A stretch of DNA of 20,404 bases, from contig JBHIAT010000053.1 in NCBI GenBank assembly GCA_046758705.1, positions 1 to 20,404 on the forward strand. Direction: 5' to 3'. Shown here piece by piece: positions 4,915 to 20,404 of this stretch; within the stretch, counting starts at the first letter, position 1, and every line of letters begins with the position of its first letter. The DNA is from Candidatus Bipolaricaulia bacterium (GTDB lineage Bacteria > Bipolaricaulota > Bipolaricaulia > JBHIAT01). The notes under the pieces were generated by a model. It was not told the origin of the DNA and made no database searches. It was given only the letters and a program-made list of their open reading frames with translations. The position numbers and the translations under genes are program-made.

Positions 4915-4941
4915 TGTTGGAGTCCTCCTCCTTGCCTTTGT

Positions 4942-4967
4942 TATCCCACCCCACCTGGGGTGGGGTA
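4942..4967. promoter_or_regulatory. CsoR/RcnR-like operator palindrome, copy 1
   Basis: TAT-CCCACCCCA-CC-TGGGGTGGG-GTA: perfect 9-bp inverted repeat just downstream of the -10 box of the HMA-copA unit. Confidence 0.8.
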
Positions 4968-4974
4968 CACCCAT

Positions 4975-5003
4975 ACTATATCACACGATCGACCGTTTGT
5001 CAA
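4975..5003 (-). promoter_or_regulatory. Sigma70-type promoter of the HMA-copA-Rieske-YHS-ftsH unit
   Basis: Minus strand TTGACA (5003-4998), 17-nt spacer, TATAGT (4980-4975), with a TGn extended -10. Confidence 0.85.
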
Positions 5004-5089
5004 GGGAGCCCATCCTATCCTGAGTACACCCTGTCTCATCCCTCTCCATTGCAGAGGATTTCGGCGTCGAGGTCGGGCCAATGTCACCT

Positions 5090-8871: not shown

Positions 8872-8915
8872 CTTTGTCCTCCTGTATTTCGCCGTTGTAT
8901 GGCTTTGTTATCTTA

Positions 8916-8945
8916 ATTATCCCACCCCAGGAGGGGAGGGGTCAA
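8916..8945 (-). promoter_or_regulatory. Putative promoter of the DOMON-cyt b-ndh unit with CsoR-like operator copy 2 in its spacer
   Basis: Minus strand TTGACC (8945-8940), 18-nt spacer, GATAAT (8921-8916) with TGn. On the plus strand the spacer region reads TAT-CCCACCCCA-GG-AGGGGAGGG-GT, the same palindrome with 2 mismatches in the right arm. Confidence 0.7.
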
Positions 8946-11603: not shown

Positions 11604-12329
11604 TCATTTCGACACTTCACCGGACTTTCGCTCGCCCAAGGGACAGTGGGCCAAGCACCGATGCCACTCGTCCCGGTGTGTCGTATCCAAAATACCGATT
11701 TCGTAGAAGACGTGGGCCACCTGCCACAGGTCGCCCACCGTGTAATCGATCCTCTCAGCTGGTTCCCTACGTCCGTTGACCCACACTGTCGTCCAACCCC
11801 GCTCCGCAGCAGGGATCAGGTTGATCCGTGAATCATCGAGTAGCATCAGTTCCCTGTCGCCCACGCCAAGGTGTGCCACCACCCGTTCATAAGTCGTCGG
11901 ATCGGGCTTCCCGCGATAGTTCGAGAATTCCAGCGCAAACACCTTGCGGAACCGGTCTGCTATTCCCAACACCGTCAGCACGCGCTCGGCGTAAAACTGA
12001 GGCGCGTTGGTAAACACGCACTTGTCCACGTGGAGGCAATCCAACAGGCAACCCAAATCCGCATCCTGTTTCAGATAGTCTTCGACGGGCAGGTCGTGCG
12101 CGTAGGCGAGAAACTCCACCACGTCCACGTCGTGGTGCAAGACCAGCCCCCGCGTGGTCGAGCCGTAGCGCTCGTTATATGCCTTACGCAGCGTTTGCGC
12201 CTGTTGGGGGGGGACCATCCCCAAGTGCTCGACCATGTACTGGATCATGCGTTGTCCCAGTGCCTGCATCAGCCCGGCAGCGGGTGGATAGAGCGTGTCG
12301 TCCAGGTCAAACAGCGTATAGCGGATCAT
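11604..12329 (-). CDS. HAD-superfamily hydrolase, pyrimidine 5'-nucleotidase-like
   Basis: LFDLDDTLYP, YGSTTRGL, VFTNA, GKPDP and LLDDSRINLIPAAERGWTTVWV. ATG 12329 overlaps the upstream stop codon (ATGA). Confidence 0.9.
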   Translation of the reverse strand: MIRYTLFDLDDTLYPPAAGLMQALGQRMIQYMVEHLGMVPPQQAQTLRKAYNERYGSTTRGLVLHHDVDVVEFLAYAHDLPVEDYLKQDADLGCLLDCLHVDKCVFTNAPQFYAERVLTVLGIADRFRKVFALEFSNYRGKPDPTTYERVVAHLGVGDRELMLLDDSRINLIPAAERGWTTVWVNGRREPAERIDYTVGDLWQVAHVFYEIGILDTTHRDEWHRCLAHCPLGERKSGEVSK

Positions 12330-13732
12330 GGCACTCCTCGTTGCAAAGCCACAGTCTCTGAGTAGCGGGGAAGATGCGTCTTCCAATTCAGTTGCTCTCG
12401 GATACGTTTTTGAAATGCCCGCGCTGCCTGAGGATCCCCGTGGACGATGAACGTCTGGCGTGGCGCCGTTTCAAAACCGGACAGCCAGCGCAGCAATTCG
12501 TGATAATCCCCGTGAGCCGACAGACCATCTATCGAGGCGATTTGCGCCCGTACAGGGACAGGTATCCCGTGGATTTTGATCTCGTTTGTGCCATCGACGA
12601 GCGCCCGACCACGCGTGCCCTGAGCCTGATATCCCACGAACAGCACGGTGTTCTTCGGATCGGGCAGGCGATGCTTGAGGTGGTGCACCACGCGGCCACC
12701 GTTGCACATCCCGCTGGCCGAGATGATGATCATCGGGCCGGGTGCGTCATTGAGCCATTTGGATTCATGCACTGTGCGGGCGAAATGGGTCTGGTGGCAT
12801 CGCAACGGGCATTCCTTCTCGTCCATGAGCAAGTTCACGTTCAGGTTGTGCTCGTCACCGAAGCGGCAATAGATAGCGGCCGCGTCGATGGCCATGGGGC
12901 TGTCCAGATAGACCGGCAGGTCCGGGATGCGCTTTTGATCCTGAAGCTTGCGCAGGTAGTAAAGCACCTGCTGCGTGCGGCCCACGGCGAAACTGGGAAT
13001 CAACAGGGCACCGCTCCGTTCAACCGTCGCCGTGACGACTGCGGCAAGCTGGTCTTCCAGCGGCTCTCGGGGATGTTCGCGGTCGCCGTAGGTCGATTCG
13101 ACGATCAAATAGTCCGCACGAGCCACGGATGCTGGGGACCTCATGACTTCTTGGTCGTAGCCGCCTAGGTCTCCGGAAAACACCAGTTTGAGTTGCTGGG
13201 TGCCGACAGAGACGTCGCATTCCAAGATGGCCGAGCCCAGAACGTGACCTGCAGGACGCATCGTCACGGTCAGCTGCTCATCGATGGCAACGGGCTGCTC
13301 CAGCTTCACGGGGCGGAGCGATTCCAGCGACCGAACCGCTTGGTCATACGTGTAGAGGGGCAGTGCTGGCTTGTATCGCGAATAGCCCTTCTTGTTGGCA
13401 TAGCTCGCCTGCTCCTCCTGCAGATAGCCCGAGTTGGGTAGGAGTAACGCCAGGAGTGCGCGGGTCGCTTCGGACGCGTATACCGGGCCTGCAAAGCCCG
13501 CGTTGATTAGTTTGGGTAAGTAGCCCGAATGGTCGATATGAGCATGTGTCAACACAACAGCGTCAAGCTGTGTTGGATCGATAGGAAGGCGGTCCCAGTT
13601 GAGCTGCTCCAGCTCCGGCGGCCCTTGAAAGATTCCGCAGTCGATCAGGTAATTCTTAGCTCCGATCGAAAGCCAGTGCTTCGATCCGGTCACCGTTCGG
13701 GCTGCGCCGAGAAACGTCAATCGCACGTTCAT
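12326..13732 (-). CDS. MBL-fold metallohydrolase with beta-CASP domain (Ysh1/CPSF-like ribonuclease family)
   Basis: FLGAARTVTGS, LIDCG, LTHAHIDHSG, AGHVLGSA, FSGDLG, VESTYGDREH, FAVGRTQ, SASGM...HHL, LSAHGD and FIVHGD. Confidence 0.94.
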   Translation of the reverse strand: MNVRLTFLGAARTVTGSKHWLSIGAKNYLIDCGIFQGPPELEQLNWDRLPIDPTQLDAVVLTHAHIDHSGYLPKLINAGFAGPVYASEATRALLALLLPNSGYLQEEQASYANKKGYSRYKPALPLYTYDQAVRSLESLRPVKLEQPVAIDEQLTVTMRPAGHVLGSAILECDVSVGTQQLKLVFSGDLGGYDQEVMRSPASVARADYLIVESTYGDREHPREPLEDQLAAVVTATVERSGALLIPSFAVGRTQQVLYYLRKLQDQKRIPDLPVYLDSPMAIDAAAIYCRFGDEHNLNVNLLMDEKECPLRCHQTHFARTVHESKWLNDAPGPMIIISASGMCNGGRVVHHLKHRLPDPKNTVLFVGYQAQGTRGRALVDGTNEIKIHGIPVPVRAQIASIDGLSAHGDYHELLRWLSGFETAPRQTFIVHGDPQAARAFQKRIREQLNWKTHLPRYSETVALQRGVP

Positions 13733-13744
13733 CAAATCTCCTCC

Positions 13745-14431
13745 TCAGCGTTCAGAAGAGTCGCCGTCGTGTTCATCTCGCTCGTTCCTCAGTGTTGAAC
13801 GACCGAAGCGTGGAAAGAATGTTGGCGTGATCGCGGCATAGCGGACGTATTCCTCGCCAAATTCTGCCAGGGCTTCGCGCTCCTCCCGACGGGCCAGCCG
13901 GACGTACATCGTTACCAATATAGGCAGCATGGTCAGCGTGAGAAGCGTCGGCCACTGGAGCAGGAATCCGAGCATGATCAGCACAAACCCGGCGTACTGC
14001 GGATGGCGCAGGCGTGCGTAGGGACCAGTGGTGGCGAGCTGCTGCGTGCGTTGTGCTTTGTAGAGCACCTTCCAGGCGGACGCCAGCAGGATGAACCCGC
14101 CGGCGATCAGTATGTTGCTGAGCAGATGGAAGGGGTACAGGTGTGGATCACCCTTCCAACCCAGCAATGTCGACCAGAGATGTCCAGCGTTATGAGAGAA
14201 TAGGTCAATCCCGGCGTAGGAGTTGCCCAGCCACCCGGAGAGCAGATAGATGGTCAGTGGAAATCCATACATCTCGGTGAAGAGCGCCATCAAAAAAGCG
14301 GAGAATGCGCCGAAAGATCGCCAGTCGCGGGTGGTGCGCGGACGCGTGAAGCTGAAAGCGAAGATGATGAACACCGCTGCGTTGATCGCGACCAACGGCC
14401 AGAGACCGTAGGCCGACAGTTCTGGACTCAT
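13745..14431 (-). CDS. Isoprenylcysteine carboxylmethyltransferase (ICMT/PEMT-like) family membrane protein
   Basis: AYGLW...RDWRSFGAFSAF...LFTEMYGFPLTIYLL, LATTGPYARLRHPQY and REEREALAEFGEEY. This subfamily is often found near copper ATPase genes. Confidence 0.9.
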   Translation of the reverse strand: MSPELSAYGLWPLVAINAAVFIIFAFSFTRPRTTRDWRSFGAFSAFLMALFTEMYGFPLTIYLLSGWLGNSYAGIDLFSHNAGHLWSTLLGWKGDPHLYPFHLLSNILIAGGFILLASAWKVLYKAQRTQQLATTGPYARLRHPQYAGFVLIMLGFLLQWPTLLTLTMLPILVTMYVRLARREEREALAEFGEEYVRYAAITPTFFPRFGRSTLRNERDEHDGDSSER

Positions 14432-14467: not shown

Positions 14468-15055
14468 TCAGCGTTGAAAATGCCAGCGCATCTCATCAGG
14501 GTGCTTTAACCGCTCCAGCACCTTGAGCTCGATCTGACGGACCCGTTCCCCGCTCAGACCCACAATCTTTCCGACCTCCCTGAGCGTCTTCGACTTCCCA
14601 TCCACCAACCCGTAACGCAGTTCCAGGATCCTGCGCTCCTTGTCGCTCAACCGGCTGAGCGACCGATCCAGATCCCGCCTCAGCAACTCCTCAAACCCCT
14701 GTTCGCTTGGAGACGGAGCGTGGTGATCCTCGATGAACTCAACAAACAACTCGTTCCCGTCATCGCCGACCGGTTCGTCGAGCGAGGCAATCTGCCGGGG
14801 AACTCGTTCGATAGCCTGTAGACGCTCCACCGGGGTCTCCAACTCGTCAGCGAGCTGTTCAGGGTCAGGGGGCTGTCCATACGCCTCTAAGTGAGCTTGT
14901 TTCGTTCCCTCGACCTTGTTGATCTCTCCGATGATGGTGGAGGTTTGGTGGGCACCGATATCGGCTCGATCGATCAGCAGGATTCTGCCGCTGAGATGGG
15001 AGGCGACGCTCAACCCGGCGAAACTCGCTCCGGCGATCACCACCTCGTAGTCCAT
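14468..15055 (-). CDS. Chimeric ORF: 40 N-terminal aa of the FAD oxidoreductase fused in frame to sigma70 regions 3-4 (possible pseudogene)
   Basis: Residues 1-40 (MDYEVVIAGASFAG...HQTST) are a Rossmann start, and 14936-14990 is identical to 20350-20404. The remainder aligns without gaps to the sigma gene at 18499-18962. ORF is uninterrupted with an AGGAGGT RBS. Confidence 0.85.
   Translation of the reverse strand: MDYEVVIAGASFAGLSVASHLSGRILLIDRADIGAHQTSTIIGEINKVEGTKQAHLEAYGQPPDPEQLADELETPVERLQAIERVPRQIASLDEPVGDDGNELFVEFIEDHHAPSPSEQGFEELLRRDLDRSLSRLSDKERRILELRYGLVDGKSKTLREVGKIVGLSGERVRQIELKVLERLKHPDEMRWHFQR
14473..14936. repeat. Direct repeat, copy A (sigma 3' half); partner is 18499-18962
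   Basis: Offset 4026 bp. By manual count, 14473-14786 has 2 mismatches in 314 bp and 14787-14936 has about 38 mismatches in 150 bp. Confidence 0.95.
14936..14990. repeat. Direct repeat, copy A (oxidoreductase 5' part); partner is 20350-20404
   Basis: 55/55 identical up to the window edge; offset 5414 bp. Confidence 0.95.
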
Positions 15056-15089
15056 GATCGGACGACCTCCTCTCTTCGAGGGTGCTCCT

Positions 15090-15113
15090 ACCCCACCCCA
15101 GGTGGGGTGGGGT
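15090..15113. promoter_or_regulatory. CsoR/RcnR-like operator palindrome, copy 3
   Basis: ACCCCACCCCA-GG-TGGGGTGGGGT: perfect 11-bp inverted repeat just downstream of the -10 box. Confidence 0.8.
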
Positions 15114-15120
15114 CACTCAT

Positions 15121-15149
15121 ACTATACCACATGATCGGCCGTTTGTCAA
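15121..15149 (-). promoter_or_regulatory. Sigma70-type promoter of the chimera-ICMT-MBL-HAD-MMPL unit
   Basis: Minus strand TTGACA (15149-15144), 17-nt spacer, TATAGT (15126-15121) with TGn. Homologous to the promoter at 4975-5003, including the spacer. Confidence 0.85.
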
Positions 15150-15244
15150 GTGAGCACATCACGGCAGGATGATGTAGACGACGCTGACGCTTAAGTAGCC
15201 CGAGTGGCCCACAAGATGAACCTCGGCAGGAAAGGGGTGATTAA

Positions 15245-15271: not shown

Positions 15272-15329
15272 CATGTAGCCGTGCAGGCTGAGTTAGCCGC
15301 TTACCGGATCGGTCCGGCCTGGTGAATCT

Positions 15330-16628
15330 TCAATCCGGCGGCAGGGTCAAAGGTTTGACATCGGTGGGACGATAGCTTGCCTGATCCGTCTCGAAGCGCC
15401 GTGGACGAAAACCATAGTTGCCCAGTCGGTTCGTATAGTTCATCAGGATGTTCATCAACTCCATCGCCCGGATATGGCCGAGCCCTCCGTTGACCCCGTC
15501 CCGTTCGGAGAACCGGCTGACCGCATCGGTGCGCACCCCTTCTGCGACTACCACGATCGGGACCGGTTCCCCCGCATGCATCGCCTTAACCGTTCCTTCG
15601 GTGCTCAGTGTCGAGTGATCGGCGGTGATGGCGACGACCAAGGAAGGATCTGGCAGGCGATCCGTTAACACCTTTAAATCTCGGTCGATCTTCTCGATGG
15701 TCTCTACCTTCTTGACTGGGTCCTTCTTATGAGCGATGACATCGGGCCTGAGGTCGTGAATGTGGACGAAGTCGTATGCGTTCAGTTGCTCTATGCCGTA
15801 CGCGTATTCGCGATCGGCTGTTTCAAGGTCGGAAAACTTCGTGTCTATACCCAGATATCTGGCAAGGCCGTTGATCACGGGTTTGGGGGAGATACTCAAC
15901 CCGTTGAGGTTGTACTTCTCTTGGAAGCGGGGTAGTTCCACCTTCTTTGCCGGCCACTTGGTGAGAATGATCGTCCCTTTCGGTCGCGCTCGATTCACCT
16001 CGTGTTGTGACAGAACGCGGTAGGTCCACCTCAGGTAGTTGTTCAAGACATGAGCCGTTCGCTCGGCCGCTTCCGGAGCGCCGACCATCGGCTGGACTGC
16101 CAGCACCGGGAGATCATCGTAGAAAGGATCGGAGTCGGTGATCTGATGAGAGACCTCGCCTCGCATCTTGAGGATACCGAACCATTTCGCCGTGTAGATG
16201 AGCTCAAGCTCGATTCCGGCCTCCCGGTAATGGGGGACGGTCTCCACCAGCGCCCGTCCCTCCTCGGGGCTCAGGCCCATATCCCGTCGAGTCACGATCT
16301 CGATGATGCCGTCGCGGAGTTCCGCCAGGGCGAGGCTTGTGCTGCAAATGACTTCATCCTCTGCGATCGCGACCCCATAACCGGTCGCTTCGAAGACCGA
16401 TCGGCCGGGCCGCCGCTCCAACGGGTAGCCAAAGATGAGATAGTGGGCGACATCCGAGGGTGAAGGCACCCCAGGGGCGATGGTCGTCATCACGCCGTTG
16501 ATCCCCTGAGCGGCCAATGCATTGAGATTGGGGGTATCGGCGACCTCGAGCGGTGTCTTGTCCCCGAGCACCCGCGCTGGTCGATCTCCAATCCCATCGA
16601 GCGTGATGAGCAGGATCTTCTTGCCCAT
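15330..16628 (-). CDS. Cofactor-independent phosphoglycerate mutase-like protein (ApgM type, alkaline phosphatase superfamily)
   Basis: LITLDGIGDRP, TPLEVADTPNLN, PSPSDVAH (phospho-Ser), PDVIAH, TADHST and MHAGEPVP metal ligands. Start moved to ATG 16628. Confidence 0.88.
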   Translation of the reverse strand: MGKKILLITLDGIGDRPARVLGDKTPLEVADTPNLNALAAQGINGVMTTIAPGVPSPSDVAHYLIFGYPLERRPGRSVFEATGYGVAIAEDEVICSTSLALAELRDGIIEIVTRRDMGLSPEEGRALVETVPHYREAGIELELIYTAKWFGILKMRGEVSHQITDSDPFYDDLPVLAVQPMVGAPEAAERTAHVLNNYLRWTYRVLSQHEVNRARPKGTIILTKWPAKKVELPRFQEKYNLNGLSISPKPVINGLARYLGIDTKFSDLETADREYAYGIEQLNAYDFVHIHDLRPDVIAHKKDPVKKVETIEKIDRDLKVLTDRLPDPSLVVAITADHSTLSTEGTVKAMHAGEPVPIVVVAEGVRTDAVSRFSERDGVNGGLGHIRAMELMNILMNYTNRLGNYGFRPRRFETDQASYRPTDVKPLTLPPD

Positions 16629-16645
16629 GCCCGGCGCCCTCTTCC

Positions 16646-17566
16646 TCAGGCGATCCTGGATTTCATCTTCTTCAACTGCCCCTTCGTCTTGGACTTGGAG
16701 TTGGAGTTGGATTGTTGCAGTTGTTCCAGGACGTTGGCCGCCATGCAGTCGTAATCGACCGCTTCCCCACGGCACAGCTTCTCCAGGATGACCTGGGCAA
16801 CGGGGAGACCGAACTCCTCCAGGAACCGGGCCGACTTCTCATCGCTGAACCGCCTCCCCGGGCCGTAATCGACCGAACCGTCCGGGTCTCGATAGCTACC
16901 GCTCAACACACAATGGAGTTGATCTTTGCCGCCCTCCCACTTCCGTCCGAGGAGTCTCACGATCTCGTCTCCGGCATCGATCTTGCGAATCGGATGGAGC
17001 AGCTCGATCCCGAACTCCGCCAGCAGTTTGGCGTAGTGATCGAGGACGATCCCTCGCTGGTTAACCTTGATCCCCCGCTGGTGAATCTCCCGCTCTCCGC
17101 TGATGACGACGCGGCAGCCGATATGTCGGGCGAGCGGCACCCGGATGGCGTGGATGTAGAGATGGCAGCCGACGCACGAGGTGAAAAAGCCGAACTGTTC
17201 ATAGAGTAGATGCTGATACCGCAGATTGAGGGCCAGCCAGAACTTGGGCGAGCCGATCACGGTCGCCTCCAGGACGTGCTCTGCCCCGATCTGGTCACGG
17301 AGCATCTCGATCGCCGCCTCGACCGTGTCCAGACTCCCATACTGGGCGCCATTGTAGGCGACCGTCGGCAGCAAGACGTTCACGTGCCCCTCCTCGAACG
17401 CCTTGATCGCTGCGGCAATGCTGTCCCGGCCGGCGATCTCCACGATCGCTAACCCCGGTATCTCACGCAACTGCGCCGCGCGGTCGATGATCTCTTCCGG
17501 GATGGTGATCTCAGGCTGTTCGGCGAACCGTTCGACAAGGCGCTCACGGATCCCTATAGACTTCAT
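16646..17566 (-). CDS. Uncharacterised protein, adenine nucleotide alpha-hydrolase (PP-loop)-like, with CxxC
   Basis: LAIVEIAGRDSIAAA resembles the beta-strand plus SGGxDS loop; also SCVGCHLYIH, VISGE and QLHCVLS. Start is uncertain (17566, 17584 or 17596). Confidence 0.7.
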   Translation of the reverse strand: MKSIGIRERLVERFAEQPEITIPEEIIDRAAQLREIPGLAIVEIAGRDSIAAAIKAFEEGHVNVLLPTVAYNGAQYGSLDTVEAAIEMLRDQIGAEHVLEATVIGSPKFWLALNLRYQHLLYEQFGFFTSCVGCHLYIHAIRVPLARHIGCRVVISGEREIHQRGIKVNQRGIVLDHYAKLLAEFGIELLHPIRKIDAGDEIVRLLGRKWEGGKDQLHCVLSGSYRDPDGSVDYGPGRRFSDEKSARFLEEFGLPVAQVILEKLCRGEAVDYDCMAANVLEQLQQSNSNSKSKTKGQLKKMKSRIA

Positions 17567-17638
17567 ATTTATCTGTCGCTTCACCCCCTGGGTCAAGTAG
17601 GCAATGTCGCCGAATTGGAAGCATAACTGGAACCGGAC

Positions 17639-18388
17639 TCAAGTCGACTGAGTGAGCTGCTTAATTTCCTCGAGATGCCTTAGGGCTTCTCTCTCGCCGG
17701 CCATGATGCAATCGTCGATATAATCGAAGGCGGTCCAGTCGATCCCCCGGACATCCGGCTGGAGCACCACCAGGTGCTCCTCTCCCAACTGCTCCCGAGC
17801 CAGTGTCTCCTGGGTGCGGGTCAGCTGGCGCCGTGCCATGAGGTCGACCCGAAAGACGACCTCCAAGGTCGAATGCGGCTCATCAAGCGACATTGTACCG
17901 ACGTCGACGGCGATGACCCGATCGGCACCCATCGCAATGGCGGCATCGATGGGCACCAGGTCGACGCCGCCGCCGTCAACGAGATACCGTCCCCTAAGCT
18001 CCACTGGGTGGTAGACGATCGGGACGGTGGCACTCGCCTCGATTGCACAGCAAATCAGTCCTTCCTGGATGAAGACTGGCTCACCGGTGTCAATGTCGGC
18101 GGCGACAGCGGTGAACGGGATATCCAAATCCTCAAACCGAGTATCGCCGGTGAATTGAGCGAACAGCTCGCACATCGTATGTATGTGCGCCTGCGGTTTG
18201 GATGGAGGGGAGTGCCAATCCCGCCGGAACAGGTACTCGGAGGCTGTCCAGCCGAGGAGCCGTCGCAGGGTTTTGGCAAGCCCCTCAGGGATGTTAAGCG
18301 TCTCCTTGAGGTCAAGCCTCTTGATCGTCTCCACCAGCTGCTCCATGTCGAGTCCGCAGACGAACGCGCCGCCGACGGTCGGTTGCAT
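17639..18388 (-). pseudogene. Patatin-like phospholipase lacking its Gly-rich loop and GxSxG nucleophile (in-frame internal deletion; probably inactive)
   Basis: Retains FEDLDIPFTAVAADIDTGE, AIEASATVP, YLVDGG and ADRVIAVDV, but begins MQPTVG-GAFVCG after a strong AGGAGG RBS. The missing motifs were not found upstream in any frame. Confidence 0.75.
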
Positions 18389-18469
18389 CTTGCAATCCTC
18401 CTATATCTCATCGCCGATCAGCCGACCCCATGGTCCGCCGGTTGTCAGGTGGCAACTGGAACGCAGCCC

Positions 18470-19381
18470 TTATACCGTACCTTTCACCAGCTTCTGTTGT
18501 TGAAAATGCCGGCGCATCTCATCAGGGTACTTTAACCGCTCCAGCACCTTGAGCTCGATCTGACGGACCCGTTCCCCGCTCAGACCCACAATCTTTCCGA
18601 CCTCCCTGAGCGTCTTCGACTTCCCATCCACCAACCCGTAACGCAGTTCCAGGATCCTGCGCTCCTTGTCGCTCAACCGGCTGAGCGACCGATCCAGATC
18701 CCGCCTCAGCAACTCCTCAAACCCCTGTTCGCTTGGAGACGGAGCGTGGTGATCCTCGATGAACTCAACAAACAACTCGTTCCCGTCATCGCCGACCGGT
18801 TCGTCGAGCGAGACGATCTGCCGGGGAATCCGTTCGAGAGCCCGTAGATGTTCCACCGGGATCTTCAATTCATCAGCGAGCTGCTTCGGGTCGGCGGGCT
18901 CCTCGTACATCTCCAGATGAGCCTGCTTCGCTTCCTTGACCCTCCTGATATCCCCAGTGATGTGAGCCGGGATCCGGATCACCCATGACTGGTCGTCGAG
19001 CGCCCGGGTGATCGTCTGGCGGATCCACCACGTGGCATAGGTGCTGAACTTACAGCCTTTGCGCCGGTCAAACTTATCGACCGCCTTGATCAGACCTATA
19101 TTCCCCTCTTGGATGAGGTCAAGAAATGGAACGCCGTACCCCCGGTACCGTTTGGCGATGCTGACGACCAGCCGGAGGTTAGCGAGGATGAGCCGCTCGC
19201 GGGCGCTCTCATCCCCTGCCTCAACCCGTCTGGCAAGTTCCAGCTCTTCATCTTTGGAGAGAAGTGACACCCGGCCGATCTCCCTGAAGTAGATGGAGAT
19301 CGAATCCTTGGCCTTGGAACCGCTATTTGAGCCGTCGACCGGTCCGGTTCGGGGCATCGTCATCGTTTTCATGGCGTTCAC
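18470..19381 (-). CDS. RNA polymerase sigma70 factor, RpoD/RpoS-like, without region 1.1
   Basis: Region 1.2 [11 protein letters not shown]; region 2 [31 protein letters not shown] and [11 protein letters not shown]; region 3.2 SLDEPVG; region 4.2 TLREVG...ERVRQIE. Start GTG 19381 follows AGGAGG (alternative ATG 19372). Confidence 0.95.
18499..18962. repeat. Direct repeat, copy B (sigma 3' half); partner is 14473-14936
   Basis: 18530-18812 is identical to 14504-14786 (283 bp). Confidence 0.95.
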
Positions 19382-19446
19382 GATTCTTCCTCCTGTTTCA
19401 GTTGATGCCGTGGCACTTCGGATGTCTGTAAGACCACTCACACCCA

Positions 19447-20404
19447 TCACGGCAGGATGCTGATGTATTCTCTCTGCACATGTTGCACCAGCCCTCGGTT
19501 CTTTAAGGACTTTACCAGGACGGCCCGCACCGGTTCTGAAGAACTGATCAGCAAACCTTGCCCGTGCAGCAACCGATCGTAGTGCAGGCGTTTCTCCATC
19601 ACGTACCGCTCGTACTCCTTCAGCCCTGCCTCCAATCCCATCTTTCCATCGATAATCTTTTGGATGATGGCTCCACATCTCCTGCCGAACTTGAGGCTTG
19701 GCCATATCCCCTCGGCGCTCAGCGGGAGGGCCTGGCCGGCAGAATCCCCCACCAGAAAGATCTCGCCAACGACCGGTCTCCGCAAACCGTAAGGGATAAA
19801 ACCGCCGTGCATCTCATCGCCCAACCCCACCCCCAATCGATCGAGGAATGTTTCCAGGTTCTCCTTGATCCGGGTCTCGCCTGCGTAACTGGCTACCCCG
19901 ATCCTCGAGCGGTCCCCGATGGGGAAGATCCAAAACACACCCTGAGGGATCAGCTGCTCATCCAGATAGAAGTGGATCCGGTCGTCCCGATAATCGGCGA
20001 CCGTTTCGAGCCCAAACGCCAAGCTGTTGCTGTCGACGAAATCCGGCCGCAGCGAGCTGGCCAACACCGCCCGCCCGCCGGTGCAATCGACGATGCACTT
20101 TCCGGTGAAGCGACCGGCGTTCGTGATCACGGTCCGGCCCTCCAAGGCGATGACCCCGGCTCTCAGGGAATCGGCCTGAGTCTTTGCAAACAGGAGTTTG
20201 CAGAACTTGCGGTAGTCCAGGGTACAGTATGGCCTGACGAGCTTCACATCGACCCGCTCGTTGGCCATCTCGAACCGCATCGTGTCCAAAACCTGGAGCA
20301 CAGCCGCTTCGCACCCGATCTCCTGGATCAACGCATACGGGGCGCCGCAGGTGGAGGTTTGGTGGGCACCGATATCGGCTCGATCGATCAGCAGGATTCT
20401 GCCG
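19447..20404 (-). CDS. FAD-dependent oxidoreductase, geranylgeranyl reductase/lycopene cyclase-like (5' end beyond the window)
   Basis: The frame stays open to the edge ([22 protein letters not shown]...). Motifs IVDCTG, FWIFP...RIGV and [18 protein letters not shown]. Confidence 0.88.

What the first reader, a model, noticed from the sequence alone, without database searches (positions are those of the whole stretch)
14468..15149. In-frame oxidoreductase::sigma chimera encoding only sigma regions 3-4 under a consensus-like promoter
Seen: codon 40 of the oxidoreductase (…HQTST) is joined at 14936, with 1 nt of overlap, to the start of sigma region 3. Relative to the intact arrangement, 1388 bp are missing (5414 minus 4026). 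ORF, RBS, promoter and operator are all intact. Known: region 2 carries the main core-binding and -10 melting functions, while region 4 binds -35 DNA, the beta-flap and anti-sigma factors. Inference: either a fresh pseudogene whose frame preserves downstream expression, or a nascent regulator acting as a -35 competitor or anti-sigma decoy.
Basis: partly seen in the sequence, partly recalled or inferred. Interest (0 to 1): 0.75.

Follow-up and report, generated by a model that had tools for sequence, protein, structure and literature searches.

The report
Broken sigma gene under copper promoter
In an uncultured vent bacterium the first 40 codons of an oxidoreductase are really joined in frame to the back half of a spare sigma-factor gene, but the fusion is likely a functionless leftover of a deletion, kept because its predicted copper-controlled promoter probably still drives the genes behind it.

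Summary
The junction is real. An identical 209-nt contig crosses it in 3 of 4 runs laid, at roughly single-copy depth. The fourth run holds the sigma parent unfused, so the join is derived. It is not a simple cut from the intact copy at 18470-20404: its region 3 is only 75.5% identical to that copy.

The protein lacks sigma region 2, has Gly at the -35-reading R584 position, and keeps only an orphan FAD-binding motif. No second example was found, but no close relative is sampled. The near-consensus promoter carries a CsoR-like operator and is the only one detected for three downstream genes, which explains its upkeep. The patatin gene beside the intact sigma has an independent in-frame deletion of its catalytic motifs, so an open frame here does not indicate function.

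Verdict: likely a remnant (about 0.72); decoy or split-sigma roles about 0.12 together. Gene order and promoter allele rest on a repeat-rich assembly. The scan noted a similar activator::FliA scar on other DNA.

The parts
14468..15055 (-). Chimeric ORF, 195 aa: oxidoreductase codons 1-40 joined to sigma regions 3-4
   Evidence: singleton cluster on 1 contig
14936..15055 (-). Oxidoreductase N-terminus (GGR-like flavoprotein; only the first dinucleotide-binding motif)
   Evidence: 63-69% identical to N-termini of 6 full-length homologues; 14936-14990 identical to 20350-20404
14935..14936 (-). Fusion junction, 1 nt shared; falls at the sigma70 H455-equivalent position
   Evidence: 209-nt contig 14757-14965 with no differences in X1-X3
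14787..14935 (-). Sigma region 3 from a paralogue other than the intact copy (75.5% identical to 18813-18962)
   Evidence: run X4 continues this piece as an intact sigma (table 7)
14473..14786 (-). Sigma regions 3.2-4, repeat of 18499-18812; Gly at R584-equivalent; reads hold a 9-SNP allele at 14618-14711
15066..15071 (-). Shine-Dalgarno AGGAGG, 10 nt before ATG
   Evidence: sequence
15090..15113 (.). G/C-tract palindrome, predicted CsoR-type operator just downstream of the predicted start site
   Evidence: 8 sites with at most 5 mismatches in the genome, 3 in this window, including the promoter upstream of copA; CsoR/RcnR genes present
15121..15149 (-). Sigma70-type promoter TTGACA-17-TATAGT with extended -10 TG
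   Evidence: same layout at 4958-5014
13745..14431 (-). ICMT/PEMT-family methyltransferase, first downstream gene (36-nt gap, own SD)
   Evidence: homologues lie in heavy-metal clusters in 3 of 3 plasmids inspected
11604..13735 (-). beta-CASP metallo-hydrolase and HAD hydrolase, predicted same transcript
18470..19372 (-). Intact group-2-like sigma70 paralogue (300 aa, regions 1.2-4)
19447..20404 (-). Intact GGR-like oxidoreductase, cut by the contig end inside the repeat
17639..18388 (-). Patatin with an independent 120-nt in-frame deletion (junction 18375/18376) that removes the glycine-rich and nucleophile motifs; serves as internal control
   Evidence: contig 18149-18559 in X1 with no differences
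15278..17593 (-). Phosphoglycerate-mutase-family gene plus unknown gene, 94% duplicate of a stretch on contig C5

Best explanation
The ORF is a real in-frame junction that is likely the scar of a deletion in one of two related oxidoreductase-sigma units, and its product is likely a translated passenger without a job. Steps: (1, shown) the genome holds an intact unit and a fused unit, and a related population holds the fused unit's sigma parent unfused. (2, inferred) About 1.4 kb was lost by near-homology-free joining, removing most of the flavoenzyme and sigma regions 1.2-2. (3, from known sigma biology) Without region 2 the product cannot form the main core interface or melt a -10 element, and with Gly at R584 its helix-turn-helix is predicted to read -35 boxes poorly. 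(4, inferred) The promoter and CsoR-like operator persist because they would drive the methyltransferase, beta-CASP and HAD genes when copper is high. An open frame avoids polarity on those genes, so in-frame scars survive better than frameshifts.
For: Junction and parent: contigs cross the junction in X1-X3 at depth 7.8/6.2/7.4, against 10/9.6/11 for the left flank. X4 carries 31 matching bases that continue as sigma region 2.4/3.0. Protein: no region 2; region 2 is the main core and -10 interface (PMC4598750 passages). Gly at position 169 maps to sigma70 R584, which contacts -31 (PMC2613000 passages); 142 of 149 library hits keep Arg. Uniqueness: singleton cluster; a junction-region search returned only itself and one full oxidoreductase among 28 candidates; none of 149 top library hits matches residues 1-13. 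Local control: the patatin beside the intact sigma has a 120-nt in-frame deletion of motifs that 7 of 7 paralogues keep, with start and SD intact. Promoter upkeep: no terminator or other promoter was detected between the chimera and the methyltransferase, whose homologues sit in metal clusters (3 of 3 inspected).
Against: The junction is shared by three samples with different SNP backgrounds, so it is not being purged quickly (one study only). It falls at the start of the sigma-3 helix, leaving sigma-3 and sigma-4 modelled with pLDDT mostly 80-94. This genome holds several sigma modules lacking region 4, fused to GAF/HD/GGDEF domains or standing alone, so sigma fragments may be reused in this lineage. 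The absence elsewhere has little power because even the parent oxidoreductase was not found in 183 other genomes of the phylum. There are no expression data.
Confidence: 0.72

Rival explanations
1. Nascent copper-induced decoy: the sigma-3/4 fragment would titrate a region-4-binding anti-sigma or activator, or occupy the beta-flap or the -35 sites of its sister sigmas.
For: Strong promoter and SD. Region 4 is the second core interface and a target of anti-sigmas and activators (PMC4598750 passages). Its region 4 is nearly identical to that of the intact sister sigma, so it could share that sigma's partners. The junction is present in three samples.
Against: No second example was found. No Rsd match in a 94% complete genome. 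PhyR mimics use both sigma-2-like and sigma-4-like subdomains. Gly at R584. Isolated E. coli sigma-4 is disordered in water (PMC4236625 passages). The neighbouring in-frame deletion shows such ORFs arise without function.
Confidence: 0.08
2. Half of a split sigma: the sigma-3/4 product would pair with a separately encoded sigma-2 protein, as in SigO-RsoA or Tn916 Sig7-8.
For: Split sigmas exist (PMC7826278 and bioRxiv 10.64898/2026.10.01.756105 passages). The genome has a 140-aa sigma-2-only ORF on C48 and other modules lacking region 4.
Against: Those modules are on other contigs. The one searched (C58) is closest to the 255-286-aa alternative sigmas, not this clade. No partner gene lies beside the chimera. 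The chimera is explained as a recent scar with an unfused parent in X4.
Confidence: 0.04
3. The junction is real but its context is misassembled: the chimera may use the other promoter allele, lie upstream of the patatin rather than the methyltransferase, or sit on a small circle or in a co-occurring strain. This does not exclude the best explanation.
For: The contig ends 55 nt inside the repeat; 230 of 638 contig ends show such 55-nt overlaps. Reads hold a second promoter allele (depth 3.5/2.6/7.6) and a 9-SNP repeat allele (5.1/7.4/8.4) of which only 3 of 9 match C25. Several paths use every segment once (inference from the repeat layout).
Against: All unique segments have similar depth (about 5-11), as expected for two copies in one genome. 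The listed differences between the promoter alleles lie downstream of the -10 box (15044-15120), so the chimera would keep a consensus promoter either way.
Confidence: 0.25
4. The junction itself is an assembly or library artefact.
For: The crossing contig has 30 letters on the oxidoreductase side, one short of the tool's 31-letter bridging rule. Only contigs, not raw reads, were available, and all runs are from one study that may include the source sample.
Against: The identical 209-nt piece occurs in three samples at about 0.7 of flank depth. It ends at 30 letters because the graph branches there; the intact copy's contig also ends 30 letters into the repeat, at 20379. Region 3 is unique sequence found nowhere else in the assembly.
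Confidence: 0.03

Closest known systems
Short-junction chimeric sigH genes of Staphylococcus aureus (nusG'-'sigH, rplK'-'sigH; PMC3486894, passages read)
   Same: In-frame fusion of the first 40-50 codons of an unrelated gene, with its promoter and RBS, to a sigma gene, with intact copies retained nearby.
   Different: SigH fusions lose only 7-16 N-terminal residues and are active sigmas formed at 7-8 bp repeats. Here regions 1.2-2 are gone and only 1 nt is shared.
Group 2 sigma70 factors (SigB/RpoS-like; PMC4598750, passages read)
   Same: Regions 3 and 4 align without net gaps to SigA/RpoD residues 457-603; the intact sister lacks region 1.1.
   Different: No region 1.2 or 2; the H455-equivalent is replaced by Thr; Gly at R584; 8 residues shorter at the C-terminus than the sister.
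Split sigma factors SigO-RsoA and Tn916 Sig7-8 (PMC7826278, bioRxiv 10.64898/2026.10.01.756105, passages read)
   Same: A polypeptide with region 4 but no region 2.
   Different: No adjacent sigma-2 partner, no conservation found, derived from a group 2 rather than a group 4 sigma, and it carries a foreign N-terminus.
PhyR sigma mimic (PMC4598750, passages read)
   Same: A sigma-derived domain fused to an unrelated domain that could act as a decoy.
   Different: PhyR keeps sigma-2-like and sigma-4-like subdomains, a complete receiver domain and linked NepR/EcfG genes; none of these is present here.
Deletion-made fusion genes such as fadA-fwsR of Pseudomonas fluorescens (bioRxiv 10.1101/091744, abstract read)
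   Same: A deletion fuses an upstream gene's start to a downstream gene in frame.
   Different: There both fused parts are working domains and the fusion arose nine times under selection. Here the donor part is a domain fragment and one event is known.

Membership tests
sigma70 factor, group 1/2 | Region 2 (core binding, -10 recognition) | tested here: not met
   No PF04542 or PF00140 hit; all listed NCBIfam RpoD/RpoS-type scores are far below cut-off
sigma70 factor, group 1/2 | Regions 3 and 4 | tested here: met
   PF04539 E 3.7e-13 and PF04545 E 5.3e-15; helical model
sigma70 factor, group 1/2 | -35 readout residues R584/E585/R588 | tested here: not met
   E585 and R588 equivalents are kept, the R584 equivalent is Gly, shared with both sister sigmas
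Split sigma (SigO-RsoA, Sig7-8) | Linked sigma-2-only partner gene | tested here: not met
   None in the window; an unlinked sigma-2-only ORF lies on C48
Split sigma (SigO-RsoA, Sig7-8) | Both parts associate with RNA polymerase and direct transcription | not testable with these tools
   Needs biochemistry
PhyR-type sigma mimic | Sigma-2-like plus sigma-4-like subdomains with a regulatory receiver domain | tested here: not met
   against the description in PMC4598750
PhyR-type sigma mimic | Cognate anti-sigma to titrate | tested here: inconclusive
   No Rsd (PF04353) match; other anti-sigma families were not searched
Short-junction chimeric sigma (sigH type) | In-frame fusion using the donor's promoter, RBS and start, with intact copies retained | tested here: met
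Short-junction chimeric sigma (sigH type) | Sigma part functionally complete | tested here: not met
CsoR regulon promoter | G/C-tract pseudopalindrome at the promoter, shared with copper-export genes | tested here: met
   1 mismatch to the site upstream of copA; 8 sites in the genome; operator types in PMC3902906
CsoR regulon promoter | TAC/GTA dyad and copper-specific repressor binding | tested here: inconclusive
   Dyad present on one side only; three full CsoR/RcnR-family matches plus a fragment in the genome; the sensed metal was not tested
GGR-like FAD oxidoreductase | Complete FAD-binding and catalytic domains (about 340 aa) | tested here: not met
   Only 40 of about 340 residues remain

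The most novel reading that the evidence does not exclude
A newborn copper-induced sigma-3/4 module, caught at birth beside its unfused parent, that throttles its sister group 2 sigmas as a decoy or completes the genome's sigma-2-only proteins into a mix-and-match split sigma system.
Probability: 0.1. Interest if true: 0.75.

Novelty: new member of a known kind. Interest (0 to 1): 0.24.

Why it matters
As a remnant it is a clean small example of how deletions in duplicated metal-resistance islands leave in-frame chimeric ORFs under strong promoters that look like new regulators. The neighbouring patatin scar is a useful internal control against reading function into an open frame. If the decoy or split-sigma reading held, it would be a natural sigma-3/4-only regulator with its parent allele still available for comparison; searches (listings only) showed no such case.

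Tried and rejected
Searches for the junction or its parents elsewhere:
- An exact 24-nt junction pattern gave 0 matches in JGI metagenomes, and a 30-nt region-3 pattern gave 0 in GTDB genomes. Both tools may omit this genome's own records.
- Oxidoreductase locus scans gave 84 and 40 candidates, none confirmed. Its best homologues are 44-49% identical, so linkage to a sigma outside this lineage was not tested.
- Chimera DNA against 183 other phylum genomes: 1 weak region-4 match, no junction. In 40 relatives, only generic matches, mostly to sigma.

Other analyses:
- No RNA holder was listed; this is no evidence on expression.
- Rfam: 0 matches in the window.
- ESM Atlas: best scores 0.76, sigma-3/4 clusters (one named as a fragment), leads only.
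- The AlphaFold model gives pLDDT below 50 for residues 1-36. The alignment had no oxidoreductase rows and 4 of 12 homologue rows placed sigma-2 sequence there, so I give this little weight.
- dN/dS of 0.27 between region 3 and the intact copy reflects selection before the fusion and was rejected as evidence for a function of the chimera.
- The 120-nt patatin gap aligned cleanly against 1 of 5 paralogues tried at DNA level (C70); the other four gave no clean two-block alignment.
- The mRNA leader fold (z -2.5) is mostly the operator palindrome and was not used.
- A complex prediction with the sigma-2-only ORF was not run, because halves of a sigma would pass by likeness to solved structures.
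- Phasing of the promoter and repeat alleles was not possible with contigs.

Full report
Setting. The window is the whole contig C53 of a 3.70-Mb, 319-contig genome, 94% complete. It has no same-family relative among the genomes searched, and runs holding it are labelled hydrothermal vent metagenome. The left half is a copper island with a CopA-type ATPase. The right half reads, on the minus strand: oxidoreductase (cut by the contig end), intact sigma, patatin, unknown gene, phosphoglycerate-mutase-family gene, promoter, chimera, methyltransferase, beta-CASP, HAD.

Observation. The ORF 14468-15055 encodes 195 aa. Codons 1-40 are the oxidoreductase start: 14936-14990 equals 20350-20404, and the peptide is 63-69% identical to the N-termini of six full-length homologues. 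Codons 41-195 are sigma regions 3-4, with no region 2 or 1.2. One base is shared at 14936 and the offset difference is 1388. The promoter (11 of 12, extended -10), SD and palindrome are as described.

The sigma half is not a plain copy of the intact gene. 14787-14935 is 75.5% identical to it and 73.6% to the C25 sigma, with dS about 0.78 and dN/dS 0.27 over 50 codons. It therefore comes from a third paralogue that diverged as a working gene. Homology also stops at 14473, leaving a C-terminus 8 residues shorter than the intact sigma's.

Is the junction real? The assembly has k=55 overlaps (230 of 638 contig ends) and the contig ends 55 nt inside this repeat, so the question was serious. Independent Logan contigs from 3 of 4 runs laid contain 14757-14965 with no differences, at depth 7.8, 6.2 and 7.4 against 10, 9.6 and 11 for the left flank. 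The piece has 30 letters beyond the junction, one short of the tool's bridging rule. That is what a branch into a repeat gives, and the intact copy's contig likewise stops 30 letters in, at 20379. The three samples differ by 2-4 SNPs per 1.2-2.1 kb in the neighbouring genes, so the junction is not confined to one clone, though all are one study and may include the source sample. In X4, at depth about 3, a contig matches 14906-14936 and then continues, read by eye from table 7, as in-frame sigma region 2.4/3.0. X4 also has 95-97% identical pieces of the oxidoreductase and its promoter region. The unfused parent therefore exists in a relative and the join is derived; that it was a single deletion is inference.

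What the assembly does not fix. Reads hold a second promoter allele (8 substitutions, 9 gap letters in 15014-15159; depth 3.5/2.6/7.6). They also hold a 9-SNP allele of 14618-14711 (depth 5.1/7.4/8.4), of which only 3 of 9 letters match C25 and 6 of 9 are synonymous. The 'identical' repeat is probably a collapsed bubble. Which allele and which downstream genes belong to the chimera could not be phased. The listed allele differences lie downstream of the -10 box.

The protein. Region 2 forms the main core interface and captures the -10 element; region 4 is the second interface and reads -35 (PMC4598750, passages). Residues 42-188 map without net gaps on sigma70 457-603. The junction therefore replaces the H455 equivalent, and residue 169 is the R584 equivalent, which contacts -31 (PMC2613000, passages). 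It is Gly in the chimera, the intact sister and the C25 sigma. Of 149 library hits, 142 have Arg, 1 has Ala and 6 lack the motif. This weakens a -35 competitor role at consensus promoters but not a role at the sisters' own promoters. Isolated E. coli sigma-4 is disordered in water (PMC4236625, passages). The model folds sigma-3 and sigma-4 confidently and not residues 1-36, with a weak alignment there. No Rsd was found.

Recurrence. The protein is a singleton on one contig. A search with residues 1-75 gave itself and one full oxidoreductase among 28 candidates. Among the 149 best of 40,947 library hits none matches residues 1-13; two sigma-length proteins extend to residues 14 and 26. DNA scans were blank. 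The power is low, since the parent oxidoreductase was not found in 183 other genomes of the phylum.

Why promoter and frame are intact. The palindrome occurs at 8 sites with at most 5 mismatches in 3.7 Mb. One, with 1 mismatch, is at the promoter upstream of copA, and others precede the DOMON gene and a 734-aa ORF on C176 that matches the copA DNA. It resembles the G/C-tract operators of the CsoR family (PMC3902906, passages), and the genome has three full CsoR/RcnR matches. Copper control is predicted, not shown. The methyltransferase starts 36 nt after the chimera, with no terminator or other promoter detected in between. Its homologues lie beside heavy-metal genes in 3 of 3 plasmids inspected, out of 261 records matched. 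The promoter thus has a reason to persist whatever the first ORF does.

Internal control. The patatin beside the intact sigma keeps its SD, start and frame but lacks the glycine-rich and nucleophile motifs (roles recalled) that 7 of 7 paralogues have. Against C70 this is a 120-nt in-frame deletion between 5-nt repeats, spanned by an X1 contig without differences. Two of two deletions are in frame (chance about 1 in 9). That fits selection against polarity or chance, and one of the two clearly destroys function. The block also carries a 94% duplicate of C5 genes.

Against the remnant reading. The junction is at high frequency in three samples and sits at a domain boundary. This genome also has sigma modules lacking region 4, fused to GAF/HD/GGDEF domains or alone (also noted by earlier findings). 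I leave about 0.12 for decoy and split-sigma roles together.

Comparison and verdict. It works like the deletion and short-junction chimeras of S. aureus sigH (PMC3486894, passages) and fadA-fwsR (bioRxiv 10.1101/091744, abstract), but keeps no complete working domain set. It fails membership of sigma70 factors, PhyR mimics and split sigmas. Paper searches (listings only) showed no natural sigma-3/4-only regulator; no supplements were read. Verdict: a real, lineage-private scar, likely without function; interest 0.24.

Noticed in passing
window 17639-18388 (-), junction 18375/18376: Patatin with a 120-nt in-frame internal deletion between 5-nt direct repeats, removing both N-terminal catalytic motifs; seven paralogues keep them.
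   Followed up: yes
G000 C58:2658-4982, C46:16379-20233, C85:2-1162, C48:1008-1874 and C48:2423-2845 (L031-L034): Sigma-2(-3) modules with no region-4 hit. Two are fused to GAF/HD(/GGDEF) domains, two had no other Pfam family, and one is a 140-aa sigma-2-only ORF. The listed matches in relatives lie in frames of 166-548 aa, none as long as the C58 and C46 fusions. Already noted by the scan.
   Followed up: partly
window 18470-19372 and G000 C25:3513-4547: A clade of group-2-like sigmas with Gly at the R584 and E458 equivalents, so likely altered -35 and extended -10 reading. The window copy is probably copper-regulated via the second promoter allele. The genome has 9 intact RpoD-like paralogues.
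   Followed up: partly
window 14618-14711 / 18644-18737 and 15044-15120: Unphased second alleles in three runs; the assembly's identical repeats are probably collapsed.
   Followed up: partly
window 15278-17593: 94% duplicate of a mutase-family gene and an unknown 308-aa gene on contig C5.
   Followed up: partly
window 4940-5014, 8912-8942, 15090-15149; also C70, C176, C200: Shared G/C-tract palindrome outlines a predicted CsoR regulon of 8 sites.
   Followed up: partly
G000 C26:3-110 and C160:7951-8058: Two near-identical sigma C-terminal tails at contig ends that share a terminal repeat, pointing to another duplicated sigma gene collapsed in the assembly.
   Followed up: no
window 16646-17596 (-): Unknown protein of about 310 aa with no Pfam or NCBIfam match, overlapping the mutase gene start by 4 nt.
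   Followed up: no
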